Assembly (NCBI GenBank): GCA_030390025.1
Contig: CM059429.1
Coordinates: 138,384,001-138,448,000 of the forward strand
Direction: 5' to 3'
From: Squalus acanthias
Taxonomy: Eukaryota
DNA: 64,000 nucleotides
Within the stretch, counting starts at the first letter, position 1. Each line of letters begins with the position of its first letter. A program made the translations under genes and the position numbers. The notes beneath the pieces are model-generated. The model worked only from the letters and a program-made list of their open reading frames with translations. It searched no databases and had not been told where the DNA came from. Below are positions 48,101-64,000 of this stretch, one piece after another.

Positions 48101-50722
48101 AATTCCCTTTCTGAAGGAGTGGAAATAAATAGGAAGGATAAATGAAAATCATTCATTTTAATTTTGCATAACATTGATGCATTTGAAAATGAAATTCAAT
48201 ATTAATTATGTTCAAGCATACAGCTGCAATGCATTTGAATGAACCACCTGTTGGTTCATGAATCTGTCCTATTGTATATGGCAAGCTGCTTCACAAATCA
48301 AGAAGAGACACACCTGGCTGCCACTTCCATGACTACTCCACACTTCTAAACTTTCTCCTTGAAGCAATTTCTCCTCAGTTTACCTGAGCTGCTACTGCTT
48401 CTACATTTACTGCTTAGAATTTAAACTTTAAAACCTGCATATATGCTTGTTGTGCAAAGTTATTTGCAAATATACTTTTTATATTCACTTTAAATTTAGA
48501 GTAGTGGGAGGAGAGTAACAGCCCGATAAATCAGGTGTGGGATGAAGAGTAACTGAGAGAGAGAATGGCAGCAGTAAGGACAGCAGGAACCTTGAGAATT
48601 CAGTTTGATACTCCAGTTACAATAAAAGCAGAGTTGTTTTAATGGGAGACTTTAATTTTCATATAGATTGGGAAGAGCAGAGTAGCTCAAGTCAGAAAGG
48701 TAGTGATTTTCTTTTGAGTACATCCAAGATTGTTTTCTGGTGCAATATATTCTAGAACCGACAAAAGGACTGGCCATACTAGATTTAGTAATGAGCCAGG
48801 CTTAGTTAATAATCTAATGGTAAGGGAACATTTATCTAACCGTGATCATAATATGATCGATGTTAGGTTTGAAAAGGAGAAACGTAATGCAGTTAAGATC
48901 CAGATTTTGGTAAGACTAACTTTAACGGGATAAGACAGAGACTGACGACAGCAAACTGGTCAAAACTGTTAGCGGGTAAAACTACAGATGAACAGTGGGA
49001 GGTGTTCAAAAAAGAATTTATCTTAATACAGGACCAATATATAAGGGGCAAGAGCTCTACTTACCAAATAAACCAGCCATGGTCGACAAAAGAGGTGAGA
49101 GAGAACATAAGACTAAAGGAAAGCGCATACAGAAGTGCAAAGAATAGAGTAGATCCAGGAGACTGGGAGAGATGCAAAGAACAGGAAAGGAAAACATAAA
49201 AAGAGAGTAAGAGTAACAAAAATCAATACAGAAAGAAACTTGCAAGGGATATCAAGATTAGCACAAAGATTTTGCAATTATATTAGAAGAAAAAGGGTAG
49301 TCAAGAGTAATGTGGGCCCTTCAAAATCAGATGCGGATAATATTGCAAATGAAAATGAGGAAATGGCAGACTTGTTAAGTAATTACTTTGTGTCATTATT
49401 CACAGTAGAGGAAGAGGATAATATACCTGACATTCCAGGGAAATTAATAATGAATCAAGGATTGGAACTCATTAAAGTAAACAAGAAAACAGCATTAGAA
49501 AAAATAATGGCGCTAAAGGGGTATGGGGAGAGAGCGGGAATACAGTATTGAGATAGAGGATCAGCCATGATCATATTGAATGGCGGAGCAGGCTTGAAGG
49601 GCTGAATGGCCTACTCCTGCTCCTATTTTTCTATGTTTCTAAAGACTGACAAATCCCCAGCACCTGATGGTTTCCACCCCAGGGTTTTAAAGGAAGTAGG
49701 TGAGGAAATTGCAGATGCTTTAACCATAATCTCCCAAAGCACTCTCGATTCAGGAATTGTCCCTTTAGATTGGAAAATTTCAAATGTAACTATTATTTAA
49801 GAAAGGTGTGTGAGAGAGAAACCAGGAAATTATAGACCTGCTAACATCAGTTGTGGGGAAGTTATTGGAATCTATAATTAAAGACCAAGTGACTGAGCAC
49901 TTGGAGAAATCTAAGCTGATTAGAGAGAGCCAACATGAATTTGTAAAGGGTAGGTCGTGTCTAACGAACCTCCTCAGATAATGAAGCAGTCCATGCACGC
50001 ATGCAGCAAGACCTGGACAACATTCAGGCTTGGGCTGAGAAGTGGCAAGTAACACTTGCGTCACACAAGTGCCAGGCAATGACTATCTCCAACAATCGAG
50101 AGTCTAACCACCGCCCCATGACATTCAACGGCATTACCCTCGCTGAATCCCCCACCATCAACATCCTGGAGGGTCACAATTGACCAGAAACTTAACTGGA
50201 CCAGCCGCATAAATAATGTGGCCACAAGAGCAGGTCAGGGTCCCAGGCCTTGTTGAAAAGGACAGAGTGTTTCAGGTTAGGTTCATAATCTGCAGTCCCT
50301 GAAAATACAGCATTCTATCTGGGTCAGAGTGTCCTTGAATCACTATCAATTTACACCAGTTTCAGATGGATCTGACTTTATTGCAGCTGAAGTTAGAACT
50401 TGTTGCTTTCTCCATCTTAACAAATCGTGAATAATACATTGCTGTCAAAATGCCTAATGCAGTGAAATTTTGTGGCAAATTAAATTTCACTATAAAATGT
50501 TATGCTGCAATCAGAAATAGTAATATTTTTTTAAACAAATGCATTGCTTTACTGAGGAAAATTGCTTTTCCCTCCAGGTTTGTTTGTGAGGGAACTGTTG
50601 AGGACAAAATCTTTGAACTTCAGGAGAAGAAAAAGGAACTAGCAAAGAAGGTGCTATCAGGAACGGGAGGATCCTTTACCAAGCTTACACTGGCTGATCT
50701 TCGAATTCTATTTGGTGTGTGA
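6123..50722 (+). CDS. TTF2: Transcription termination factor 2 (SNF2/SWI2 ATPase, N-terminal GRF-type zinc finger), whole gene span, 23 coding exons, 1214 aa
   Basis: The exons below join in phase with GT-AG introns to 3645 nt. Motifs: [68 protein letters not shown]-terminal [13 protein letters not shown], as in vertebrate TTF2. Confidence 0.97.
6449..6843. mobile_element. Family B palindromic Penelope-like insertion in TTF2 intron 1; hammerhead motif at 6705-6740
   Basis: Inverted arms (ACAGAAAACGCTGGAAAAACTCAGCAGGCCAGGCAGCATCC); 12-bp TSD GCTTTAGACTCG at 6437-6448 and 6844-6855; AGTT-CTGACGA-AAGGTC(TTC)GACT-GAAA-CG-T-T-AACT. Confidence 0.72.
7495..7715. mobile_element. Older family B palindromic element; hammerhead-like motif at 7556-7590 (- strand)
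   Basis: Inverted arms homologous to the 6449 element; reverse complement reads GTT-CTGATGA-AAGGTC-ATC-AACCT-GAAACATTAAC. Confidence 0.6.
8205..9172 (+). mobile_element. CR1 LINE 3' fragment
   Basis: [33 protein letters not shown]; typical CR1 3' UTR ending CCTATGTTC. Confidence 0.8.
8278..8568 (+). mobile_element. tRNA-derived SINE (HE1/V-SINE type) nested in a CR1 LINE
   Basis: A box (GTGGCATAGTGG), B box (GGATTCGAATC), V-domain-like GGGTTTCCTCCGGGTGCTCCGGTTTCCTCCCAC, GATTCTGT tail repeats; splits the CR1 WQMD|FNA codons. Confidence 0.75.
9379..9593. mobile_element. Palindromic Penelope-like pseudo-LTR insertion (family A) with hammerhead motif
   Basis: Long inverted arms (AAAAGTGAGAAGTCGCACAACACCAGG.. 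and its complement), 13-bp TSD CATTGTTAAAGAA at 9366-9378 and 9594-9606. Confidence 0.75.
9471..9507 (+). ncRNA. Minimal type I hammerhead ribozyme motif
   Basis: TCAC-CTGACGA-A-GGAGC(AGC)GCTCC-GAAA-GC-T-T-GTGA: helix I TCAC/GTGA, CUGANGA and GAAA cores, 5-bp helix II, palindromic mini helix III. Confidence 0.75.
10634..10745 (+). CDS. TTF2: TTF2 exon 2
   Basis: CAG acceptor; [22 protein letters not shown]; GTACGT donor. Confidence 0.93.
12592..12678 (+). CDS. TTF2: TTF2 exon 3
   Basis: [18 protein letters not shown]; AG/GT boundaries in phase. Confidence 0.92.
13370..13436 (+). CDS. TTF2: TTF2 exon 4
   Basis: [22 protein letters not shown]. Confidence 0.92.
14792..15874 (+). CDS. TTF2: TTF2 exon 5 (large low-complexity linker exon, 1083 nt)
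   Basis: Open frame with RNPFRV..WK and ending LTAQLNQKK; CAG acceptor, GTAATC donor. Confidence 0.93.
16331..18414 (-). mobile_element. Harbinger/PIF-like DNA transposon remnant with degenerate Myb/SANT-like ORF
   Basis: TIRs TGGCCGGAATTTT/AAAATTCCGGCCA; frameshifted [45 protein letters not shown] (~17940-18156); contains nested CR1 3' ends at ~17560-17860. Confidence 0.65.
19457..19583 (+). CDS. TTF2: TTF2 exon 6
   Basis: [22 protein letters not shown]. Confidence 0.93.
20438..20602 (+). CDS. TTF2: TTF2 exon 7
   Basis: Phase 1-1 exon [14 protein letters not shown] between TAG and GTAAAA; weakly conserved linker. Confidence 0.8.
23399..23556 (+). CDS. TTF2: TTF2 exon 8
   Basis: [26 protein letters not shown]. 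Confidence 0.93.
24683..24764 (+). CDS. TTF2: TTF2 exon 9
   Basis: [27 protein letters not shown]. Confidence 0.95.
24945..26075 (-). mobile_element. LINE (CR1/L2 clade) RT fragment
   Basis: [26 protein letters not shown]; [12 protein letters not shown]. Confidence 0.85.
26191..26304 (+). CDS. TTF2: TTF2 exon 10 (Walker A)
   Basis: [17 protein letters not shown]. Confidence 0.95.
27133..28265 (-). mobile_element. CR1 LINE RT fragment with internal deletion
   Basis: [31 protein letters not shown], joined directly to the 3' UTR. Confidence 0.9.
29077..29529 (+). mobile_element. Full-length tRNA-derived SINE (SacSINE1/Deu-SINE type) with L2-like tail
   Basis: GTGGCTCAGTGGG A box, GGTTCAAGTCC B box, ends GCTATATAAATGCAAGTCTTTCTTT; degenerate copies or tails at ~7050, 10290, 11000, 13620, 21150, 26480, 28670 and 45700. 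Confidence 0.75.
29693..29843 (+). CDS. TTF2: TTF2 exon 11
   Basis: [18 protein letters not shown]. Confidence 0.95.
30599..30704 (+). CDS. TTF2: TTF2 exon 12
   Basis: [19 protein letters not shown]. Confidence 0.95.
31150..31349 (+). CDS. TTF2: TTF2 exon 13 (DEAH box)
   Basis: [34 protein letters not shown]. Confidence 0.96.
31653..31806 (+). CDS. TTF2: TTF2 exon 14
   Basis: [25 protein letters not shown]. Confidence 0.95.
33118..33806. mobile_element. Non-autonomous TIR element
   Basis: Termini CCCAGATTTTG/CAAAATCTGGCCC; CpG-richer than its flanks. Confidence 0.45.
34173..34264 (+). CDS. TTF2: TTF2 exon 15
   Basis: [24 protein letters not shown]. Confidence 0.94.
36128..36216 (+). CDS. 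TTF2: TTF2 exon 16
   Basis: [18 protein letters not shown]. Confidence 0.93.
36339..37805 (+). mobile_element. Related Harbinger-like element (internally deleted)
   Basis: Termini GGCCGCAAATTTAA/TTAAAATTGAGCCC; same Myb/SANT-like segment ([13 protein letters not shown]) at ~36580-36680. Confidence 0.6.
37900..38825 (-). mobile_element. CR1 LINE 3' fragment
   Basis: [26 protein letters not shown]. Confidence 0.85.
39748..40540. mobile_element. Non-autonomous TIR element (MITE-like, GC-rich)
   Basis: Termini GGGGCTGAATTTTAA/TTAAAATTCCCCCC resembling the Harbinger-like TIRs. Confidence 0.5.
40723..40865 (+). CDS. TTF2: TTF2 exon 17
   Basis: [30 protein letters not shown]. Confidence 0.95.
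41477..41647 (+). CDS. TTF2: TTF2 exon 18
   Basis: [25 protein letters not shown]. Confidence 0.95.
42250..43230 (-). mobile_element. Degenerate L2 LINE
   Basis: [11 protein letters not shown]; [18 protein letters not shown]. Confidence 0.7.
43453..43511 (+). CDS. TTF2: TTF2 exon 19
   Basis: [19 protein letters not shown]. Confidence 0.92.
46032..46185 (+). CDS. TTF2: TTF2 exon 20
   Basis: [31 protein letters not shown]. Confidence 0.95.
46827..46909 (+). CDS. TTF2: TTF2 exon 21
   Basis: [27 protein letters not shown]. Confidence 0.96.
48010..48084 (+). CDS. TTF2: TTF2 exon 22
   Basis: [24 protein letters not shown]. Confidence 0.96.
48630..50240 (+). mobile_element. Degenerate CR1 ORF2 with nested CR1 tail and fused second LINE fragment
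   Basis: [23 protein letters not shown]; nested tail at 49519-49638 flanked by CTAAAG; switches at ~49970 to the family seen at 25000-26000. Confidence 0.75.
50578..50722 (+). CDS. TTF2: TTF2 exon 23 (last coding exon, TGA stop)
   Basis: [32 protein letters not shown]; candidate ATTAAA poly(A) signal at 51265-51270. Confidence 0.96.
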
Positions 50723-51428
50723 GTCTCAAAGGAAAAACAGTCCTGAAATCTAATTGTCGAACATTCCAACAAATCTCAGTCGAGAGGCTCCGTGTGTCCT
50801 TAAACTATAGAAAGGGGGCCAGTTTGAACTTCCGGATGTCCTAAACATTTGTCAAACATCATATGGATGTTGTTGTTGTTGGTGTGTAATTATGATGGCT
50901 TACAAAAACTTTATAAGTTCATAGGTCATTTATATATTTGGTGTGTGAGTTTCTGTTTCAAGAATGAAATACACAGCTGCTTCAGCCCAGGCTGAAGCCA
51001 GATATTGTCTACATGATTGGGGAAAATACGACCGAAGTAAGGAACTGAAATAATTTGTTTGGATCTTAAAGTCTGGCAAAAAGGGAGTTTTTTTTTTAAA
51101 ACAAGAGGCTTCTTCATTTTTAACAGAGGTAGGAAAACAACTCCCAATGCAAATGAAGATTTACTTTATCAAAGTAAATATGATTTAGGTTAGGTCAGAT
51201 CGTTGCTTCCTTAACTTGCCACTTGTCATTCTTTATAAACTGAATGTAAGAAAGAAAATTCTTCATTAAAGTAAATAATTTTGACTCCTTTCTGCAGAAT
51301 ACTTTGGAAAAGATTTTGTGATCTGGTTTCTTTCAATAACTAATCCATTTAACATATGCAGCATCTTTTAAGATGCAGAACGATTCTTTAACCGAGCATG
51401 GCATTGAGAAAGAATGTGTGAATCATAC

Positions 51429-52256
51429 TGTAGCTTTTAAAAGCTCTTTATAATTTGTCCGTGACTACACAAACCACTCTGGGTACAGGTATATTGTGTA
51501 TCAGTAAAACAGGTTTATTAAGCATTAAACATCCAGTACAAAGAAGTAATACTTAACAAGAAGATAGTTACAGTCTGTTCATTCGAACCCCGGCGTTCCT
51601 TCTGAGTGACTGTGGCGCAGTCTCCTGATGTGTCTTGCTGTGTTCTGTTGGCTGAAGCTCGCTTCCTTGGGTTCTTGCTGTGTTCTGTTGACTGAAGCTC
51701 CTATCAATATCTGGTTACGCGGTGCGCTGCTTTCAATGTTCAAAACTTGTATCTTTATACCCCTTTTCCTCTCATTTTGCCTATGTGGCAGTAATTAACC
51801 CTCTGACACCTGGTAAATGTCTCGCTTCCCTCGTTAGCCCTCTTATGACCTTGTTGATCCCACTAGGTTTTTCTCTACGCATAACAAAGTGCCCTTATCT
51901 TTAGATGTTCACTTTTCACAGACCATTTCTCAAGATGTTGTCTAAACAGTCTGTCCATCCGATAGCTGTACCAAGGAGGGATGTCTCCAATTCCTATCTC
52001 TCTCTCTGGTTCTTATCTCTTTAAGCATAATATTACTGAATTCCTCGTCTCCACCAGTCTCCATAACCTTAGTCCTACATTCCATTACTTCAGTAATTGA
52101 AAACACAGCAGTTTCAGTCAGGTTGGCATAATTTCCCATCCTGCTTTTCTCTCAGCCATTCGCCATTTTATACAGGCTTTTAGGCTTTTAACATACAATT
52201 TCACATATTATAGTTCTTAATGTTTACTAAAACCTACAGGTACACCCTATCCTACA
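51429..52256 (-). mobile_element. Solo LTR (828 bp)
   Basis: TGTAG...CTACA termini, 4-bp TSD ATAC on both sides; orientation inferred from an AATAAA on the - strand at ~51514. Confidence 0.7.
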
Positions 52257-53599
52257 ATACAATGGGTTAATGCAATGTCCCTGAGGTGTGAGTTTGAATC
52301 CAGCTCAGATTGCAATGGAAATCCCCTTTGCTGATGTAAGGACTCTTTGTGAAATGAGCTTAGGCAGACTTGACACAATGGCTCGTGATTGTGGGTGCAT
52401 TGCCCAAAACTGCCAACCATTCAGCACAAATTGACACAAAATTTTCAGTCTTGTTGTATAGCTGGGGAAGCTAGGTTCAAGGCACATTGTTGGAGCAAAG
52501 CAGAGGGAAGTTTATTTTACATCTGGGAATGTTTCAGGGTGACATGGGTAGCTAAAATAAGGAAAAGTGTTCTAATCCACAGAACTAGCCCTCGTTCATC
52601 ATATAAGCATACAAGCAATTGCCAAAATGTAACTTTAATTAAAAATAATTGTGATTTGATCCAACCTCCATTCTGTGGACCTTCATGTGAGTAATGGGAG
52701 CTTGATTTATAGTCTATTTAAAAATGAAATGTGTCATTGTGCTTCATTGCCTTTGGCTACAGGGAATGAAACGGACAGGTAGATATTTTTTTTAAATCTC
52801 TAGTTTATAACTGTGATAAAACCTTAAAATTCATTATTCAAGTATAATCCAGAGAAATTCCAACTGTTGAAAGTCTTTCATTTGTTTAAACTAGTGCTTT
52901 TCAAACTGTTCTGTTTGGCAAATCTTGCAAACACTCCACAGGACCATCAGTCCTGACTTACAAAAAAGGTATCAGCTACCTAAAGGAAACAGATGCTGTC
53001 ACGGTAGAAAAGATTTTTATTCGTATACAGCAAAATAAACAGAAGTCAACAACTAGAGAGAGCCAATGAGCTTGTGGGATCCCAGTTTAAAAACATGGTT
53101 TCAGCATCAGGTAATAGGTTGAATTAGTTGGAAGTGCAGATTTTTTTTTTGCTGAAAGATTTGCTCTAATAGCTGGTATTATATAATCTGTTGAGATGTT
53201 CTCCATTATATTGATTCCATATTACGTGCATTTCCTGCAGGTTGACAGTTATCAGTGTTTACAGACAAAAATTATTTAATCTGTTTGCAGTGTATACAGA
53301 TTCTAAATAAACCTATTGGAATAGCTCTATTATTTAATGGATTGCAAAGGGAAGCCTAAAGCGTATTCAATTTTTATGAAGTAAGGAAATAATCATTATA
53401 AACAATTAGCATCAAAACAGGAACTAGTAACAAAAAGTCCATTCGTGTCATTATTTATTCAGATCTCCCAAAACTCTACCTTCCAGAAGGACAGGAGCTG
53501 CAATGGCACGAGAGCTTTTGAGAAATGAAATGGGACATATTAGAATCATGCAAATGTTTATTACACAAAACCATGCTAAATAATTTTATTACTTACCAT

Positions 53600-53697
53600 T
53601 TACATAGGAATTTGAACACAGATCACTGCCGTCAGTAATAAACTCATTCCCACAAAGAAGATGAGGTAGCGTATGATTACTGGGACGGAACGGCCAT
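53600..53697 (-). CDS. IgSF copy 1 transmembrane exon (DGRSVPVIIRYLIFFVGMSLLLTAVICVQIPM*)
   Basis: CAG acceptor, phase-1 in frame with C1, ~22 hydrophobic residues containing Arg, TAA three bases before a G|GTAAGT donor. Not in the ORF track because it is short. Confidence 0.75.
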
Positions 53698-56600
53698 CTG
53701 TAACTAGAGTACATAGGGTGAGGTCACCCTTCTGTTATAATAGCTTGACAACCTGTTAATGCACTCCTAAGAAATTATTTTGCTCCTTTATTTTTTAACT
53801 GAGGCATTTTAACTGGGTTAACACTTTATCAAAATAACAAATTCAGGTCTGTCATAGATACTTTCAGTGGCTTCAGTCTCCCCCCTAAGTGATCTGAGCA
53901 TCTCCTAATGGAGTTGACTCATGCTACCCTATATCTACTTGTATAATAGCATAACCCAGGATGTAACAATAGTATCCGTTCGTGATCTGAACTTGATATT
54001 TCTTTTATGGGTGCTTCTTTAATCCTAAAGCGGATCAAGCAAACACTTGGTGTGAGACAAGGCCAGATACAAATCGTAAAGCTGCTTTATGACATAGTAA
54101 GGAGAGCAACCGATATGTTTTGATTCACTTAATTAAATCAGTTCAACTTATCTTCACGTATCAAAAGGCTGCCTTACTGACTTTTTAAACACAATGCCTT
54201 CTCATCCTCTAGCATTTCTAAACTCTGTCAGCGAAAGCTCTTGCAGCTTTCTGTTTAAAAACCTGACCGACTGCCAGTGTCTCTGTCTCTGCTTTTATCT
54301 CCCTTTGTTCAGAGATCAAAAATGGTCAAATAGTTTCAATGCGACACACTCCAACAGAGATGATTAGACATCGAACAGGACACTAATTTGCAGGTCTTCA
54401 GCATCTCAATCATCAACCAGTCAATCTGACTGACTGTGTATGATTTACAGCTCCGAAGAATCGGATATAGGAAGATGGAAAAACTTAAAATACTGGTCCA
54501 AAAAATCATTTAAACAGATTTATATTTTTATACTATAAATTACATTAATCTGACCATTCTGTATTAACCAAAATCCTGTGATTCAGCATATTACTGCACA
54601 TCATTATACTGAAACAGGCATTTGAAAAGTTCATAATTTTTGTCTTTGTAATTTATGTCTTATAGATTAACAGCATATGTCAATGTGTTGTTTGAGTTTG
54701 TAGATACCAATAGCACTGTGCAGATAAAGTTGTGACTTTAAATGGAGAAACAGTTGTTCTCCCTGTACATGGGCCCTAAATCTTAAAAAAAATAAAGGGT
54801 CTGTATGGTTACCCATTAATACAATTGTAATCCCCAGCTCTAAATGATGTTTAGAATGATGTTTTTCAACTTAAATTTAATTAACATTTGTGTCTAAAAA
54901 CTATTACATTAATATTCACATTTTAATTAGATTAAAATTAGAATGTCATTTTACGTTGTATTCTAAATAGACTTACAGGTAGCACTGGTAGTATATGAGG
55001 TGACCGGGTTAAACATTAATTATTATCTGGGAGGACTTTTATGATTTTTGATTGATTGGATATTATGCAAGTATTACTTGGAACTGATCTTACTAGAAAT
55101 GCTACAATTGTCCTTTTTACAGAATATGTAAATCACAGCAGTAATATTTTATGAATGCAATTGGTTAAGAGCAGTTAGATGCAAAGGAAGACAGTGCACA
55201 CGGATTGGAGTGATTTGTTCTTTTCTGGCTACAATAAGTAAATAAACTAGGACATAATTTTTGACTATAAATGCTCTCACTGTTATGATTAGAGCAAAGC
55301 AATAGAAAATGTCCATCAAACGGTATGTTTATCTCTCGTTAGGGGTCATTTAAAATGCCCTGTTCCACGCTGTACTTTAATATTGATACATAGTGAAGTA
55401 TGTATCAAACACCACACACACATGGCTTATTAAAATAACGCTAGCCCTACACTTAGAATTCAGACGGTAAAACTTGGGACATTTCACAAATATGCTGTGT
55501 TTAGCGATACAATTTCATCTTTTCATAGATCCAGTCAAATACTTCGGAGTGCAAATGTTATCTAGATATTTCTGATGAAGATCGACCTGAAATACATTTT
55601 AACAAAGTCACAGTACATTTCTGATTTTTTTAAATGCAGATTAGTTTTAAACAAGTTTGTCGTCTGTACTGACTTGTATCTCTTTTATATAAAAAGCTTG
55701 CGTATCCGCTCGCTAATGGGAATCGCCGTTAAAAACCTATTACCTTCCTACAGACACCATTATTGTATAGACAACTCGACCTGATCAACTCTCATGGCAG
55801 TAGCCCTTCCTTGAATCAAACTGTAGCACACAACGACTTGTTTATGTCTAATAAAGTGTGTGTATCAATTTTACCGTCTGTGCGTCATCCATGCCTTTGT
55901 TACCTCTAGACTTGACTATTCCAACGCACTCCTGGCTGGCCTCCTACATTCTACCCTACGTAAACTTGAGGTCATCTAAAACTCGGCTGCCCGTGCCCTA
56001 ACTCGCACCAAGTCCCGTTCACCCATCACCCCTGTGCTCACTGACCTACACTGGCTCCCAGTTAAACAACGCCTCGATTTCAAAATTTTTATCCTTGTTT
56101 TCAAATCCCTCCATGGCCTCGCCCCTCCCTATCTCTGTAATCTCCTCCAGCCCCACAACCCCGAGATACCTGCGCTCCTCTAATTCTGCCCTCTTGAGCA
56201 TCCCTGATTATAATTGCTCAACCATCGGTGACCATGCCTTCTGTTCCCTAGGCCCAAAGCTCTGGAATTCCCTGCCTAAATCTCTCCTCCTCTCTACCTC
56301 TCTTTCCTCCTTTAAGACGATCCTTAAAACCTACCTCTTTAACCAAGCTTTTGGTCACCTGCCCTAATTTCTCCTTATGTGGCTTGGTGTTAAATTGTTT
56401 GTCTTGTAACACTCCTGTGAGGCGCCTTGGGACGTTTTACTATGTTAAAGGCGCTATAGAAATACAAGTTGTTGGTGTTGCCTGACTCCAATACTTACTA
56501 TTGTGCCATTTCCATTTATGCATAAAACAACTTCTGGCATTCCACTGGTTGGATGTGGAGTAACTGGGAGCAGCTTTATTCCCTTTGTCAACAACTTACC

Positions 56601-58556
56601 TCCGCTGTCACCGAAACTTTTCCTCACTGACCCTTTCAGTGTAACGTGTTGAACCTGACAGGTGACGGCGGTTCCCGGGTCCCAGAGAGTGTCTGTAATC
56701 CGCAGCCGGGAGCTCAGGTTGAAGGTGCCGTCACTGTTTACTGTCAGGGAGTCCGGTTCTATTTGATAGGAGACATCTCCCGCTACAATCCAAGAAATGT
56801 TCAGACCTCTCGGGAAAAATCCCGCCGCCACACAAGTCAGAGACTCAATCCCAACAACTTCATTCTCGGGATCCGCAGAGAGATAGACTTCAGGTTTCGC
56901 TAAATAAACATTAAAATATCACAAGTTATATCAAAGCAAATATATAGAGAGCAACTGTAGATTAAACTCGTGCATATATGATACTAAATGGGAAATTATA
57001 TGATTTGATTAGATTATGTCTCAATATACAAATCACAAGATACCTATAATAAAATATAACACATGTACCCGAATGAAATACGAGCCAGAATAATATCCCG
57101 TGACTTTACAATAAGTTTCGTTCGCTTTGTTTTTCTTTGGACCAATAGCAAGAAAATTAAATGAAGTGACTATGCTTATTTCACAAAATCAGTGTCGCTA
57201 TTTGCAATTCGCTTGTTATAGAAATAATATCCCGCTGTTAGAATAGAATCGGACAGCACAGAAGGAGGCCATCCGCCCATCGTGCCTGTGCCGGCTCTTT
57301 GAAAGGGCTGTCCAATTAGTCCCGCTCCCCTGTTCTTTCCCCATGGCATTGCAATGTTTTTTCTTTTTCAAGTATTTATCCAGTATTGGTATCAGCATTC
57401 TATAATTTTGTCTTTTGGATGTTTTTCTTCAAACCAAGTGTTTTTTAAACTATATGAAAGTGTCTGCTGTTTAATGGATATTGTGGAATTAAAGTTAAAC
57501 GCTGGTGTATTCAGTCCAGTCCCCAGTGCACAGAGTATGTCAGTCCCAGATTAGATATGTGTGTGGAGCGAGTTCTGATTCCTTTGCCCCAATACATTGA
57601 ACTATTTCAGTTTTGATGCGGAGATGCCGGTGTTGAACTGAGGTGGACAAAAGTGAGAAGTCGCACAACACCAGGTTATAGTCCAACAGTTTTATTTGAA
57701 ATCACAAGCTTTCGGAGCGCTGCTCTTTCGTCACTTCACCTGACAAAGGAGCAGCCGTTCCGAAAGCTTGTGATTTCAAATAAAACTGTTGGACTATAAC
57801 CTGGTGTTGTGCGACTTCTCACTTTTATTTCAGTTTTGGTTCATCTAATTACCTTGGATGTTCAGTTCTGTTCCCTCTCCTGTAAATTCTTTCCAGGGCC
57901 GAGGCTCCTCTCTAAGAACCAGGCAGTGGTAAGTGTCGGAATCGTCCACAATCACCTCCCGGATGATAAGCGAGCCCTCAGATAGAGACACACGAGAGCT
58001 TTTATTGAGGGCATTCCTAGTTTTGTTGCCTCTGATGCCAGGATTGTCTCTTGCCCTAAACCAATAATATCTCACCGAATCCAGCCGCTCCTCTCCGGGT
58101 AACAGGGTGCAATTGATCCGAGCTGTCTGTCCTCTCAGGAGGGACAGAGCTAAAGGAGACTGGATCACTTTCAGACCGACAGCAGGCCCTGGGACATAAA
58201 ATGACAACAAGTAGGAACATGACATTCAAATTATCTGAGTCCAACTAGAATAACTGTCACGATAGCAAAATACTGCAGATGCTGGAAATCCGAAATAACA
58301 ACAGAAAACGCTGGAAAAACTCAGCAGGCCAGGCAGCATCCGTAGAGAGAGAAAGAGAGTTGACGTTTCAGGTCGATGAAAGGTCATCGACCTGAAACGT
58401 CAACTCTCTTTCTCTCTCTACGGATGCTGCCTGGCCTGCTGAGTTTTTCCAGCGTTTTCTGTTGTTATTTAGAATAACTGTCAACTGGGGTAAGAGTAAA
58501 TGCTTACCTAAGACAAGGAGCCAGAGTTTGAGAACAATGTTTCTAAATGGAGCCAT
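53600..58556 (-). CDS. Non-rearranging VJ-C1-TM IgSF receptor gene, copy 1 (PRARP/NCR3/SIRP-like), 4 coding exons, 260 aa
   Basis: Leader, V, C1 and TM exons all join with phase-1 GT-AG introns (49+336+300+98 = 783 nt). Confidence 0.85.
55885..56480 (+). mobile_element. L2 LINE 3' end in the C1-TM intron
   Basis: HAFVTSRLDYSNALLAGL..LTDLHWLPVKQRLDFKI..GPKLWNSLP..FKTILKTYLF. Confidence 0.85.
56600..56899 (-). CDS. IgSF copy 1 C1-set exon
   Basis: AKPEVYL..LTCVAAGFFPRGLNISW..NSDGTFNLSSRLRI..W....VTCQVQHVTL; C1-set hallmarks (GFxP, NxDGTF, CxVxH). Confidence 0.93.
57616..57825. mobile_element. Family A palindromic Penelope-like insertion in the V-C1 intron (copy at ~63310-63519)
   Basis: Inverted arms; TSD TATTTCAGTTTTG at 57603-57615 and 57826-57838; hammerhead core mutated (CTGACAA). 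Confidence 0.75.
57853..58188 (-). CDS. IgSF copy 1 V-set exon with in-exon J-like G strand
   Basis: VIQSP..ARINC..YYWFR..GSLIIREVIVDDSDTYHC..EFTGEGTELNIQ; canonical Cys/Trp/D-x-x-x-Y-x-C and GxGT motifs. Confidence 0.93.
58260..58469. mobile_element. Family B palindromic insertion in the leader-V intron of IgSF copy 1 only
   Basis: Near-perfect hairpin; 14-bp TSD TAGAATAACTGTCA at 58246-58259 and 58470-58483; empty site visible in copy 2 (~63940-63953). Confidence 0.9.
58508..58556 (-). CDS. IgSF copy 1 leader exon (MAPFRNIVLKLWLLVL-G)
   Basis: ATG, hydrophobic signal peptide, G|GTAAGC phase-1 donor. Confidence 0.85.
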
Positions 58557-60002
58557 ATTGCTGAAGAAAGCACCGAGTCACCGGTTGGTTAGACCTGTTG
58601 GCTGGTCTAAAGAATATTAAGATCGCTGGGAGATTATTGTGGTTGTAGCGCACAGTGCGTCACATCACACCGGCTGCTGGTTACCTGCACCTCAGGGGCC
58701 GGTGCCCAGGGGTCCCAGTAAAGCCCACCCTTCAACTGCTGGATTAGTTTCATTTAAGCATAGCATATTGTGATATGATTTACTTTATTATCAATGCAGT
58801 GTGTAAACATTCTGGGTCTATTTCTTCCTGGATTTTACTACATGTTTGTGTTTTAATGGATGGGGGTATTGTTGGGGTGTGGAGGGCCCCCATGTTTTTG
58901 ATGGCCATGGCCCCAAGAATTCTTACTCTGGCTCTGTATTCAGTCTCCTTCAGCTTTATCGCCCTCTGTCAGACCAACAGCAGGCACTGTTAAATTAAAA
59001 TTACAAGTGAATAAAGCTAAGGGAAGCTGAAAACTGCACAGAACTGCAGTAAATAGTTTTTTTTCAAATGAAAATGAAAGCTGACCAAAGGCAATGGAGT
59101 AGAATTGAAGAATCTCGGTCGCTAGAAATTCAAATGCTGACCAAGTTGTTGATCGGAGGCAGTCAACTTGAAATTGAAGTTTACTAAAGTGATCAAGTAC
59201 ATCACCTCACAACACTGCAACCTGTTTCTAAAAACACGCCAAGCAGTTCAGTGTAATTTTGTTAAATGCAGGAATAGAATATTTTTAATTTTAGATGAAC
59301 AATCATTTACTTAAGTAGGTGAGAAAGCTACTTTAATTATTTTTATTCATGCTCGGGATGTGGGCATCACTGGCAAGGCTGGTATTTCTAGTCCGTGGGA
59401 CAACTTTCCCAATTTTGGCACAAGTCCCCAGATGTTAGCGAGGAGGAATTTGCAGGGTCAACTGGGCTGGATGTGCCGTTGTTGTGTTCGAAACGGATGC
59501 CTAGGTCGATGCCGGATGGTCCGTCAGGTTTTATTCCTCTACGTGTTTGTCGCAGTTCAATACAACGGAATGGCTTGCTAGGCCATTTCAGAGGGCAATT
59601 AAGAGTCAGCCACATTGCGGTTGGTCTGGAGTCACATATAGGCTAGATTGGGTAAGGACGGCAGGTTTCCTTCCCTGATTGACGTTAGTGAAAAATTTTC
59701 TTCGTAAAGCAATTTTTTTTTTTTAATTACCATTTCTGATTGCAGCATAACCCTTTGAACCATGAGGTGGTGGCACAGTGGTATACAGTCGGCAAGGAGT
59801 GGCCCTGGGAGTCCTCAACATTGACTCTGGACTCCATAAAATCTAATGGCAGCAGGTCAAACATGGGCAAGGAAACCTCCTGCTGATTACCACCTACCGC
59901 CCTGACTCAGCTGATGAATCTGTACTCCTCCATGTTGAACACCACTTGGAAGAAGCACTGAGGCAAGGGCACAGAATATACTTCAATGTCCATTGACTCC
60001 AT

Positions 60003-61695
60003 GGCCACGATTTCCCCTACTTGGGTGGGTCCGTGGTGAGCCCCGGCCTCGCTGCTGGCTCCAGCCCGCTGTCCATAATGATTTTCCCCTGATTGGGCTT
60101 GTTGAACCCATCCAGCGCATTTGCCGGCCAATTGAAGGAATTTGATGACGCGTCATCAGCCGGTTTCCTTAAAGAGACCATGAGCAAATTTATTTTGACA
60201 GTTGTGCTGTCTGTGTTTTACAGCATTGAGGTGCTGCAAGCACTGACCAGCACTGCACAGAGGTGCACAGCTGCACCCAGGCTCTCCCACAGCATGCAGG
60301 GAGGTTCTCTTCCCTTCCAATGGGCGGAAGAGACCGCCCCAGGAGACCAACGCAGCCTGGTTGCACATTCCACAGGAGGACACAAGCAGGGATGTCGTCA
60401 GGAGGACCAGGCTACAGTGGCGCAAACCTTTCAATGATCTCAGTAGATTACGAAACGTTACTGCAAAGCCACACTCAACCTCATCCTGCTGTGCCACTCA
60501 TCACACCCCCATCACTCTGCCTTCCCTACCCTACTCCTGCACATCCTTACTCACACCAACTTACCTTGCACCTCCACCCATCCCTCTCTTATTTACATTA
60601 TTACTTCCCCATCTCACTAGCCACCCCTCACACTCGCCCACATCCTAGTCCAATCAAACCAACTAACAACATACAAGGGTAGGCACTTGGGTGTTTTATG
60701 CAATGTTCATGTAAAGTTTCTATTAATGTGGTGTCATTGAAAGCTTTATTTTCAGCAATTTGCATTCTTGGACAAATCTGTGTGCACCTTTGGAAGTGGC
60801 TTAGTGAATTGCAGTGAATGGTGAGACATAACGGTAATCCCTGCAATGGTGATGAGTGTGAAAGGAATGGCTTGGTCATTGTAGGGATGCTTTATGGTGT
60901 TGGTGTGGGGTGGTGCCAACCTGGCACATCATGTGGCAGCCATATGGGTGTACAGCGTAAAGTGAAGTAAATCTGGCTATGGTGAGGCCATCCCTGGCCT
61001 CCCGGGCAGCAATGTGGTCGGGTGCTGATGCCCTGTGTCCTGTGCAGCATCAGTTGATTGCGGAGAAGGTTGGTGGTGCTGCTGGTGTGCCTGGTGATGT
61101 TGGTGTTGGGGCTGATCGTGGTGGGATTCAGAGCACCAAGGTGAGGTAGTTTCAAGGGCACTGATGCTGATGTAATAGATGGCAGGTGAACTTGAAATGA
61201 CCGAAGCGATCTGTTAATGTTGAAAGAGGTTGTTTCAATGAGGTGACACTGGATAGAGAGTTTACTCCAAACACTTGCAACCTACATCAATCTGGCTTCC
61301 AAATGCAGTAAGCAACAGCTTCTGAACTTGGAAAGTGAACAGCTGTGAGATGGGAGCTTTTATAGCACATTTGCAGCTGCCAAGTAATGAGATGATTCCA
61401 CGGCCATTCAACTCCAGCCCTGCTTACCTGACGTGATCCCCGAGCAGCGAGAGCACCGTGGGCAACCTCGTAAAATGTAAAGGTGTGCTTAAATACTTCT
61501 TAATGTGTTGTTAACAAGGTCATAATGACCTGAATTACCTCCCCCGTTGCTGCGTGTCAGGTCTGTTCAGTGCTGACAGACCCGACATCTGGGAAAGGTG
61601 CGTGGCAGCGGGTTGACACCGGGGCCCCGACACGCTGTTGAAAAAAAACATTTTCCCACCTGACTCGCCACTGATCGCGCCCACTGACCACCCAA
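60003..61695 (+). mobile_element. Related Harbinger-like element, right terminus truncated where the L2 fragment begins
   Basis: Inverted homolog of 16331-18414 ([20 protein letters not shown]); the last ~12 nt of the TIR are missing at 61695. Confidence 0.6.
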
Positions 61696-62177
61696 ACTCG
61701 CACCAAGTCCCATTCACCCATCTCCCCTGTGCTCGCTGACCTACATTGGCTCCCAGTTAATCAGCGCCTCGATTTCAAAATTCTCATCCTTCTTTTCAAA
61801 TCCCTCCATGTCCTCGCCCCTCCCTATCTCTGTAATCTCCTTCAGCCCCACAACCCACCAAGATATCTGCGCTCCTCTAATTCTGCCCTCTTGAGCATCC
61901 CTGATTATAATTGCTCAACCATCGGTGACCATGCCTTCTGTTCCCTAGGCCCTAAGCTCTGGAATTCCCTGCCTAAATCTCTCCTCCTCTCTACCTCTCT
62001 TTCCTTCTTTAAGACGATCCTTAAAACCTACCTCTTTAACCAAGCTTTTGGTCACCTGCCCTAATTTCTCCTTATGTGGCTTGGTGTTAAATTGTTTGTC
62101 TTGTAACACTCCTGTGAGGCGCCTTGGGACGTTTTACTATGTTAAAGGCGCTATAGAAATACAAGTTGTTGGTGTTG
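61696..62177 (+). mobile_element. L2 LINE 3' end (apparently chimeric) at the duplication breakpoint
   Basis: ORF 61729-62064 LHWLPVNQRLDFKIL..; 5' part diverged from 56001, 3' part near-identical. Confidence 0.85.
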
Positions 62178-62296
62178 CCTGACTCCAATACTTACTATTG
62201 TGCCATTTCCATTTATGCATAAAACAACTTCTGGCATTCCACTGGTTGGATGTGGAGTAACTGGGAGCAGCTTTATTCCCTTTGTCAACAACTTAC

Positions 62297-62596
62297 CTCC
62301 GCTGTCACCGAAACTTTTCCTCACTGACCCTTTCAGTGTAACGTGTTGAACCTGACAGGTGACGGCGGTTCCCGGGTCCCAGTGAGTGTCTGTAATCCGC
62401 AGCCGGGAGCTCAGGTAGAAGGTGCCGTCACTGTTTCCTGTCAGGGAGTCCGGTTCTATTTGATAGGAGACATCTCCCGCTACAATCCAAGAAATGTTCA
62501 GACCTCTCGGGAAAAATCCCGCCGCCACACAAGTCAGAGACTGAATCCCAACAACTTCATTCTCGGGATTCGCAGAGAGATAGACTTCAGGTTTCG
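62297..62596 (-). CDS. IgSF copy 2 C1-set exon
   Basis: 295/300 identical to the copy 1 C1 exon; splice sites intact. Confidence 0.9.
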
Positions 62597-63546
62597 CTAA
62601 ATAAACATTAAAATATCACAAGTTATATCAAAGCAAATATATAGAGAGCAACTGTAGATTAAACTCGTGCATATATGATACTAAATGGGAAATTATATGA
62701 TTTGATTAGATTGTCTCAATATACAAATCACAAGATACCTATAATAAAATATAACACATGTACCCGAATGAAATACGAGCCAGAATAATATCCCGTGACT
62801 TTACAATAAGTTTCGTTCGCTTTGTTTTTCTTTGGACCAATAGCAAGAAAATTAAATGAAGTGACTATGCTTATTTCACAAAATCAGTGTCGCTATTTGC
62901 AATTCGCTTGTTATAGAAATAATATCCCGCTGTTAGAATAGAATCGGACAGCACAGAAGGAGGCCATCGGCCCATCGTGCCTGTGCCGGCTCTTTGAAAG
63001 GGCTGTCCAATTAGTCCCGCTCCCCTGTTCTTTCCTCATGGCATTGCAATGATTTTCCTTTTCAAGTATTTATCCAGTATTGGTATCAGCATTCTATAAT
63101 TTTGTCTTTTGGATGTTTTTCTTCAAACCAAGTGTTTTTTAAACTATATGAAAGTGTCTGCTGTTTAATGGATATTGTGGAATTAAAGTTAAACGCTGGT
63201 GTATTCAGTCCAGTCCCCAGTGCACAGAGTATGTCAGTCCCAGATTAGATATGTGTGTGGAGCGAGTTCTGATTCCTTTGCCCCAATACATTGAACTATT
63301 TCAGTTTTGATGCGGAGATGCCGGTGTTGAACTGAGGTGGACAAAAGTGAGAAGTCGCACAACACCAGGTTATAGTCCAACAGTTTTATTTGAAATCACA
63401 AGCTTTCGGAGCGCTGCTCCTTCGTCACTTCATCTGACAAAGGAGCAGCCGTTCCGAAAGCTTGTGATTTCAAATAAAACTGTTGGACTATAACCTGGTG
63501 TTGTGCGACTTCTCACTTTTATTTCAGTTTTGGTTCATCTAATTAC

Positions 63547-63882
63547 CTTGGATGTTCAGTTCTGTTCCCTCTCCTGTAAATTCTTTCCAGGGCCGAGGCT
63601 CCTCTCTAAGAACCAGGCAGTGGTAAGTGTCGGAATCGTCCACAATCACCTCCCGGATGATAAGCGAGCCCTCAGATACAGACACACGAGAGCTTTTATT
63701 GAGGACATTCCTAGTTTTGTTGCCTCTGATGCCAGGATTGTCTCTTGTCCTAAACCAATAATATCTCACCGAATCCAGCCGCTCCTCTCCGGGTAACAGG
63801 GTGCAATTGATCCGAGCTGTCTGTCCTCTCAGGAGGGACAGAGCTAAAGGAGACTGGATCACTTTCAGACCGACAGCAGGCC
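63547..63882 (-). CDS. IgSF copy 2 VJ exon
   Basis: 333/336 identical to the copy 1 V exon; splice sites intact. Confidence 0.9.
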
Positions 63883-63977
63883 CTGGGACATAAAATTACA
63901 ACAAGTAGGAACATGACATTCAAATTATCTGAGTCCAACTAGAATAACTGTCAACTGGGGTAAGAGTGAATGCTTAC

Positions 63978-64000
63978 CTAAGACAAGGAGCCAGAGTTTG
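63978..64000 (-). CDS. IgSF copy 2 leader exon (3' part; runs off the window)
   Basis: ..KLWLLVL-G|GTAAGC, identical to the copy 1 leader end. Confidence 0.8.

What the first reader, a model, noticed from the sequence alone, without database searches (positions are those of the whole stretch)
53591..53697. TM exon with charged Arg, TCR-alpha/delta-like motif, and stop codon just before a splice donor
Seen: SVPVII-R-YLIFFV-GMSLLLTA-VICVQIPM*, with almost no cytoplasmic tail and TAA-ATG|GTAAGT. Established: TCR-alpha (FRILLLKVAGFNLLMT) and TCR-delta (LRMLFAKTVAVNFLLTA) TMs have an N-proximal Arg and an xLL(M/L)T motif, and TRAC ends its CDS in the TM exon followed by a non-coding last exon. NKp30, NKp46 and GPVI use an N-proximal TM Arg to recruit FcR-gamma or CD3-zeta. 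Inference: an activating receptor signalling through an ITAM adaptor, with a TM and exon layout echoing TCR-alpha/delta but lacking the second basic residue and any evident Cys-bearing connecting-peptide exon.
Basis: partly seen in the sequence, partly recalled or inferred. Interest (0 to 1): 0.75.

Follow-up and report, generated by a model that had tools for sequence, protein, structure and literature searches.

The report
Shark activating paired immune receptor
This shark exon encodes the arginine-bearing membrane anchor of an antibody-shaped, non-rearranging cell-surface receptor that is likely the 'on' partner of a near-identical 'off' receptor found across sharks and rays, and its resemblance to the T-cell receptor anchor is probably a shared docking trick rather than shared ancestry.

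Summary
The minus-strand exon 53697-53597 encodes a transmembrane (TM) helix with Arg at 53671-53669, a TAA stop at 53602-53600 and a consensus donor 3 nt later. It is the last coding exon of an open leader-VJ-C1-TM gene model (260 aa). Six database homologues from sharks and rays have this exon: Arg in 5 of 6 (His in one), the same stop codon in 3 of 6; the longer stingray/devil-ray tail fits a one-base frameshift. Other family members carry an uncharged TM and a Tyr-motif tail. In three species both forms exist, with V domains 98%, 99% and 82% identical, and V domains group by lineage, not by tail type. This is the anatomy of a paired receptor; this gene is the likely activating member, probably using CD3-zeta (FcR-gamma was not found in sharks in a 2014 survey). 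The TCR-alpha/delta likeness is weak: no Lys at +5, no Asn at +10, Thr in only 2 of 7, no Cys connecting-peptide exon, no TCR hit in PDB. Use of the donor, expression and adaptor binding are untested. PRARP membership could not be tested.

The parts
58508..58556 (-). Leader exon of the receptor gene (ATG at 58556), phase-1 donor
   Evidence: 15 of 17 identical to Heptranchias P0002 N-terminus
57853..58188 (-). Single-exon VJ-type Ig domain with germline-joined J-like GxGT strand
   Evidence: Pfam V-set E 3e-9; 50-82% identity to 9 shark/ray proteins
56600..56899 (-). C1-set Ig domain exon, phase 1-1
   Evidence: Pfam C1-set E 7e-15
53597..53697 (-). TM exon (the finding): Pro at -4, Arg codon 53671-53669, Gly +7, Ser +9, stop TAA 53602-53600
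   Evidence: AlphaFold model of homologue P0015 starts the helix 5 residues before the Arg
53591..53596 (-). Consensus splice donor GTAAGT 3 nt after the stop; use unproven; AATAAA at 53590, 53562, 53459 offer unspliced 3' ends
62297..64000 (-). Upstream tandem copy: end of leader (64000-63978, cut by window edge), VJ 63882-63547, C1 62596-62297; 98.4% identical; no TM exon of either type before the next leader
50600..50722 (+). Last coding stretch of the convergent neighbour, a SNF2-family helicase gene (read as TTF2 from recall; the name was not returned by any search)

Best explanation
The exon encodes the membrane anchor of a non-rearranging VJ-C1 receptor that is likely the activating member of an elasmobranch paired-receptor family: its Arg, about one helical turn into the membrane, is predicted to bind the Asp pair of an ITAM adaptor dimer, most likely CD3-zeta, because the protein itself ends a few residues after the helix. 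Shown: gene anatomy, conservation of Arg and early stop, existence of long-tailed Tyr-motif relatives with near-identical V and C1 domains in the same species. Inferred: the two forms share a ligand and signal in opposite directions; their ectodomains are kept alike by gene conversion or repeated re-duplication while the two TM/tail modules stay distinct; the donor after the stop splices to a UTR-only exon (a stop 3 nt before the last junction would escape nonsense-mediated decay, from established knowledge). The likeness to TCR-alpha/delta is read as use of the same Arg-to-zeta docking rule, not as descent from the TCR TM exon.
For: Arg in 5 of 6 homologous TM exons and His in the sixth; P(-4), G+7, S+9, LLL, I+16 invariant in 7 of 7. 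Stop at the same codon in Heterodontus, S. torazame and Pristis; the longer tails of 3 myliobatiform proteins are compatible with the Pristis tail read one base later at 4 of 6 positions (null 1.8%). A related species' genomic contigs span the exon and list three changes (one T-to-M, two silent), none at Arg, stop or donor GT. 13 of 14 long-tailed elasmobranch members carry two or more YxxL/V/I motifs behind an uncharged TM. Both types in one species: V identity 98.2% (Heterodontus), 99.0% (Pristis), 82.2% (Mobula hypostoma) against 53-79% between Arg-type V domains of different species; the Arg-type label needs 7 changes on the V tree for 8 rows, like shuffled labels (6.9). This matches the definition of paired receptors (PMC3533184). 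Arg near the top of the TM couples TCR-alpha/delta, CD89, NKp30 and NKp46 to zeta/gamma, and His can replace it in CD89 (PMC13107469). cd247 is expressed in bamboo shark T cells (PMC11372145). Frog V-C1 proteins found in the same search also have a TM Arg (P0117, P0125, P0172, P0173).
Against: No transcript, surface expression or adaptor binding is shown. The homologues are gene-model proteins. Hydropathy cannot place the Arg: the best 21-residue windows include it (2.38) but one that excludes it scores 2.29, and 18 uncharged hydrophobic residues follow it. No inhibitory-type TM or tail exon lies in the window, so the partner gene was not seen in this genome. 9-11 of the differences in the relative's contig were not listed. 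FcR-gamma was not found in shark genomes in 2014 (PMC4016189), leaving the adaptor uncertain. Only 3 species show both types; for about eight other species only the long-tailed type was retrieved.
Confidence: 0.7

Rival explanations
1. The TM exon is homologous to the TCR-alpha/delta TM exon, and the gene is a relic of the pre-RAG antigen receptor that kept the zeta-binding Arg, the stop in the TM exon and the non-coding last exon.
For: Single-exon VJ plus C1; fold search of a homologue's model returns TCR and Ig light chains first; V profile hits Ig light and TCR V domains. With a one-residue shift, G+7/S+9/T+13 line up with the G/N/T of the TCR-alpha string quoted in the finding. Stop before a strong donor. 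Non-rearranging VJ genes are proposed precursor relics (PMC10751288, PMC12227049).
Against: No Lys +5, no Asn +10, Thr +13 in 2 of 7, no Cys connecting-peptide exon. The TM and a 6-sequence TM profile found no TCR chain in PDB at E up to 10 (short hydrophobic queries are weak). The same Arg rule is used by unrelated receptors. The closest TM among 138 TM-bearing proteins fetched was the family's own inhibitory TM from Heptranchias; no TCR-alpha/delta TM was among them, so that ranking does not exclude TCR.
Confidence: 0.1
2. The Arg sits at the outer membrane interface and the protein is a tail-less, non-signalling decoy or adhesion form (SIRP-gamma-like) that competes with the inhibitory receptor for ligand.
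For: 18 hydrophobic residues follow the Arg; an Arg-excluding window is nearly as hydrophobic. In Heptranchias the inhibitory TM aligns without gaps with its flanking Lys on the Arg. One ray copy has His.
Against: An invariant Pro and three mostly hydrophobic residues precede the Arg in 7 of 7; the model's helix starts 5 residues earlier; Arg, not Lys, is kept in 6 of 7 over the shark-ray split; among 196 fetched proteins a buried-basic pattern was found in 10, of which 7 are short-tailed members of this family or its frog relatives.
Confidence: 0.13
3. The gene is silent or a recent pseudogene, or the stop is a recent nonsense change that cut off a cytoplasmic tail.
For: Ray homologues have a 20-residue tail; the upstream copy lacks a TM exon and all 8 exon differences between the copies change residues.
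Against: All four exons are open with canonical GT-AG ends; the stop is at the same codon in two other sharks and a sawfish; the ray tail fits a derived frameshift; no downstream sequence resembles the ray tail.
Confidence: 0.07

Closest known systems
PRARP (Fu et al. 2019, PMID 30770416) and Xenopus VJC1 genes (Ohta et al. 2019, PMC6761025); neither paper held, titles seen in a reference list, content recalled
   Same: Non-rearranging, germline-joined VJ domain; PRARP is listed among joined-VJ IgSF genes (PMC11599192; PMC10751288). V-C1 layout and Tyr-motif tails in non-avian orthologues are recalled.
   Different: As recalled, PRARP was described with inhibitory/switch motifs; this gene has a TM Arg and no tail. 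Orthology not tested: no sequence named PRARP came back from any search.
SIRP family (SIRP-alpha / SIRP-beta / SIRP-gamma)
   Same: V-set plus C1-set ectodomain, inhibitory and activating pair (PMC12975943; PMC3533184). RefSeq auto-names many homologues SIRP-beta-1-like or SHPS-1-like. Ray members have V-C1-C1; inhibitory tails carry up to four Tyr motifs.
   Different: This gene has one C1. SIRP-beta couples to DAP12, through a central Lys (recalled), not an N-terminal Arg. A mammalian SIRP-beta-1-like protein scored no better than other V-C1 proteins (E 2e-17, 34%) and no SIRP was among the 60 best PDB hits of the V profile.
Arg-type zeta/gamma-coupled receptors (NKp30, NKp46, CD89)
   Same: Arg in the top half of the TM and dependence on a separate ITAM module (PMC13107469).
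   Different: Different ectodomains; no sequence kinship of the TM was detected or tested beyond the PDB searches.
TCR-alpha / TCR-delta constant region
   Same: VJ-C1 fold, N-terminal TM Arg, almost no tail, stop within the TM exon (TRAC layout recalled).
   Different: No rearrangement, no central Lys, no Asn, no Cys connecting peptide, and an inhibitory sister gene.
UrIg / UrIg2 (PMC12227049)
   Same: Elasmobranch non-rearranging VJ-C1 genes; UrIg2 was the top whole-chain PDB hit of the C1 exon because three domains add up.
   Different: UrIg is secreted with three C1 domains; UrIg2 has nine C1 domains plus TM. Per-domain scores to this C1 are only 23-28 bits.

Membership tests
TCR-alpha/delta chain | Arg in the N-terminal part of the TM (zeta-zeta contact) | tested here: met
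   window and 5 of 6 homologues; feature per PMC13107469
TCR-alpha/delta chain | Central TM Lys, 5 residues after the Arg (CD3 delta-epsilon contact) | tested here: not met
   +5 is F, F, F, V, T, I, I
TCR-alpha/delta chain | Conserved TM Asn and Thr of the alpha-beta coiled coil | tested here: not met
   no Asn in 7 of 7; Thr at +13 in 2 of 7, none at +14; feature
TCR-alpha/delta chain | Cys-bearing connecting-peptide exon | tested here: not met
TCR-alpha/delta chain | Split V and J with recombination signals | tested here: not met
   V and J-like strand in one exon; no exact nonamer in 52001-64000
TCR-alpha/delta chain | Stop in TM exon followed by a spliced non-coding exon | tested here: inconclusive
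   stop and donor present; no joint or cover at the exon in the RNA-guess contigs laid
Paired immune receptors | Near-identical ectodomains in activating and inhibitory members | tested here: met
   3 species, V identity 98.2, 99.0, 82.2%; not seen within this window
Paired immune receptors | Inhibitory member with ITIM-type motifs | tested here: met
   13 of 14 long-tailed proteins have two or more motifs; motif level only
Paired immune receptors | Activating member with short tail and charged TM residue | tested here: met
Paired immune receptors | Genes clustered together | tested here: inconclusive
   each pair is on a contig of the same length, adjacency not shown; no inhibitory tail in the window; no genome held
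Paired immune receptors | Adaptor association and overlapping expression on immune cells | not testable with these tools
   no shark adaptor sequence in hand, no informative RNA run
SIRP family | One V-set plus two C1-set domains | tested here: not met
   one C1 exon in this gene and in shark homologues; two in some ray members
SIRP family | Orthology (V-domain kinship, synteny) and CD47 binding | tested here: inconclusive
   no special closeness; SIRP rows were not put on the tree; binding not testable
PRARP / VJC1 | Germline-joined VJ domain followed by C1 | tested here: met
PRARP / VJC1 | Orthology to chicken PRARP by sequence and synteny | not testable with these tools
   papers not held; no named PRARP sequence retrieved
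UrIg / UrIg2 | Three or more C1 domains, IgG-like dimer | tested here: not met
   one C1

The most novel reading that the evidence does not exclude
This family keeps the pre-RAG state of a TCR-alpha/delta-like chain: one VJ exon, one C1, and a TM exon whose Arg recruits CD3-zeta, with stop and non-coding last exon inherited from the same ancestor as TRAC/TRDC. The TCR would then descend from the activating member of an innate paired-receptor family that survives in sharks, rays and frogs.
Probability: 0.1. Interest if true: 0.85.

Novelty: new variant of a known kind. Interest (0 to 1): 0.48.

Why it matters
Non-rearranging VJ-C1 genes are the main candidates for relatives of the gene that RAG split. 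A shark member that is both antigen-receptor-shaped and predicted to signal through a zeta-type adaptor, paired with an inhibitory twin whose ligand-binding domain is kept nearly identical, gives a concrete test of whether Arg-to-zeta coupling predates rearrangement, and a candidate NK/myeloid on-off receptor pair in a lineage where few are described. The principle (paired receptors, Arg coupling) is known; its occurrence in this family was not found in 10 literature searches, but the two most relevant papers were not held.

Tried and rejected
Expression: no RNA holder listed. Four RNA-guess runs laid on 50700-64000 were swamped by repeats; two laid on 52600-55500 gave no cover or joint at the TM exon; no conclusion drawn. 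Whole genome not held, so the partner gene and wider synteny could not be searched. Search for a downstream exon like the ray tail: first script timed out; rerun over 564 acceptor-frames found nothing convincing (best 10, control maximum 7.5 in one frame). Common origin of the activating and inhibitory TM exons: Heptranchias scores 32 ungapped against a control maximum of 23 (122 controls; 0 of 300 shuffles), but the other 11 anchored inhibitory TMs score 3-18 (the script stopped early, so only one shuffle test ran); with gaps 3 of 14 exceed the control 95th percentile; left as a hint. PDB searches with the TM found no TCR. Fold search and Atlas gave only generic Ig/TCR/SIRP-like/B7H6-like neighbours. 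Naming the neighbour as TTF2: searches show only SNF2 family. No complex prediction was run: no shark adaptor sequence was available from the tools. Fu 2019 and Ohta 2019 not held. No supplementary files were read; those of PMC11372145 (bamboo shark single-cell markers) might show expression of the orthologue.

Full report
Observation. G|GTAAGT occurs 10 times on the minus strand of the window and once between 56599 and 50722, so a donor this close to the stop is unlikely by chance (about 0.0016 for a 10-nt window). AATAAA hexamers at 53590, 53562 and 53459 would also allow an unspliced 3' end.

The gene. Leader 58556-58508, VJ exon 58188-57853, C1 exon 56899-56600 and the TM exon are all phase 1 and give an open 260-residue protein. 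Pfam calls the domains V-set and C1-set. V and the J-like strand are in one exon and no exact recombination nonamer lies in 52001-64000. There is no Cys outside the two Ig disulfides except one in the TM; a scan of the C1-TM intron gave one weak mini-exon without Cys. A second leader-VJ-C1 copy, 98.4% identical, lies upstream and has no TM exon before the next leader. The convergent neighbour is a SNF2-family helicase; I read it as TTF2 from recall.

Homologues. The V exon found 9 shark and ray proteins at 50-82% identity; further searches and cluster look-ups added more. They fall into two tail types. One has an uncharged TM and a long tail; 13 of 14 such elasmobranch proteins carry two or more YxxL/V/I motifs, several four or more. 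The other has the exon of this finding: Heterodontus P0015, Scyliorhinus torazame P0107, Pristis P0018, Mobula hypostoma P0007, Hemitrygon P0011 and P0014. Arg is present in 5 of these 6 and His in P0014; Pro -4, Gly +7, Ser +9, three Leu and Ile +16 are invariant with the window. The two sharks and the sawfish stop at the same codon as the window. The three stingray/devil-ray proteins continue about 20 residues; their first six tail residues are compatible at 4 of 6 positions with the sawfish tail read one base later (1.8% of random peptides reach 4; the three tails are not independent), so the early stop is likely ancestral and the longer tail derived. Genomic contigs of a related species (runs X10, X11, one study) span the exon; the listed differences in it are one T-to-M and two silent changes, none at Arg, stop or donor GT, though 9-11 differences in that contig piece were not displayed. 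All homologues are gene-model proteins.

Pairing. Three species have both types in the database, on contigs of the same length. Their V domains are 98.2%, 99.0% and 82.2% identical within species, whereas Arg-type V domains from different species are 53-79% identical. On a 28-row V tree the Arg-type label needs 7 changes for 8 rows, no fewer than shuffled labels (6.9); Heterodontus and Pristis pairs are starred sisters. So the TM/tail modules are old and distinct, and the ectodomains are renewed within lineages. That fits the definition of paired receptors (PMC3533184, passages). Frog V-C1 proteins from the same search include long Tyr-motif tails and TM-Arg forms, but their branches are long and orthology is not shown. 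Against: the inhibitory TM and tail exons are not in this window (best tblastn E 0.5 or worse), and for most species only the long-tailed type was retrieved.

Mechanism. An Arg near the top of the TM couples TCR-alpha/delta, CD89, NKp30 and NKp46 to zeta or gamma dimers, a central Lys couples to DAP12 or CD3, and His can replace Arg in CD89 (PMC13107469, passages). An AlphaFold model of P0015 (mean pLDDT 81.8) has one helix from residue 234 to 260 with the Arg sixth. Hydropathy is not decisive: windows with the Arg score 2.38, one without it 2.29. cd247 is expressed in bamboo shark T cells (PMC11372145, passages); FcR-gamma was not found in shark genomes in a 2014 survey (PMC4016189, passages), which used early assemblies. 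CD3-zeta is therefore the best guess for the adaptor. All of this step is inference; no binding was tested or modelled.

The TCR-alpha/delta likeness. Taking the TCR strings as quoted in the finding, Lys is at +5, Asn at +10 and Thr at +14 from the Arg. This family has F/V/T/I at +5, Leu at +10 and A/V at +14; Thr at +13 occurs in 2 of 7. A one-residue gap aligns G/S/T with G/N/T, but a gap inside the helix turns these residues relative to the Arg. Neither the TM nor a six-sequence profile matched a TCR chain in PDB at E up to 10, a weak test for short hydrophobic queries. The best TM match among 138 fetched TM-bearing proteins was the family's own inhibitory TM from Heptranchias, with its flanking Lys on the Arg; other inhibitory TMs support this only weakly (3 of 14 above the control 95th percentile), and no TCR-alpha/delta TM was in that set. 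If the two exons share an origin, the donor after the stop would be the left-over of the donor that leads to the tail exons in the inhibitory form. Whether the donor is used is open: no informative RNA was found and no downstream exon could be identified.

Known families. The ectodomain fits the non-rearranging VJ-C1 class discussed for PRARP, NKp30 and UrIg (PMC10751288 passages; PMC11599192 passages; PMC12227049 outline, first eighth of the text and passages). Fu 2019 and Ohta 2019 were not held; what I say of their content is recalled. It works like SIRP-alpha/beta (PMC12975943 passages) but has one C1 and an N-terminal Arg, and no special closeness to SIRP was seen. Fold and Atlas searches gave generic V-C1 neighbours. 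Ten literature searches listed no paper describing an Arg-bearing activating form of this family in cartilaginous fish; the library lacks most subscription journals. Earlier AI notes from this scan mention similar on/off VJ-C1 families in sharks; a sequence look-up found none overlapping this gene, so they may concern other subfamilies and are not counted as support.

Verdict. Observation confirmed; activating Arg-type receptor likely (0.7); TCR-alpha/delta homology of the exon unlikely (0.1). New variant of a known kind; interest 0.48.

Noticed in passing
window 64000-62297 (-) versus 58556-56600 (-): Tandem V-C1 copy without its own TM exon; all 8 exon differences change residues (3 in V, 5 in C1, one removing an N-glycosylation site) while the V-C1 intron has 6 mismatches in 953; the shared block ends inside a repeat near 61691/55996. 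It could be a truncated duplicate, a secreted form, or splice to the downstream TM exon.
   Followed up: partly
window about 59006-58966 (-): A 41-nt copy (35 of 41 identical) of the V-exon acceptor and first codons lies 400 nt upstream of the leader, possibly the remnant of another copy.
   Followed up: no
window 58470-58293, 57826-57649, 63520-63343: Near-perfect palindromes of about 178 nt in the gene's introns; the one in intron 1 is present in the downstream copy only.
   Followed up: no
proteins P0008, P0010, P0014, P0020: Stingray and devil-ray members have a duplicated C1 (V-C1-C1), converging on the SIRP domain layout, in both tail types.
   Followed up: no
proteins P0001, P0003: Annotated isoforms of the inhibitory gene skip the TM exon in frame in Heptranchias and Heterodontus.
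   Followed up: no
proteins P0075, P0077, P0063: A second V-C1-TM family with one C-terminal Tyr motif exists in chimaera, sawfish and skate; the Pristis member is on a contig of the same length as the Pristis pair. Possible partner chain or the true PRARP orthologue.
   Followed up: partly
proteins P0117, P0125, P0172, P0173, P0069: Amphibian-type V-C1 proteins share a Phe-Pro-Val-Arg TM start with Pro two residues before the Arg, against four in elasmobranchs; common or independent origin is open.
   Followed up: partly
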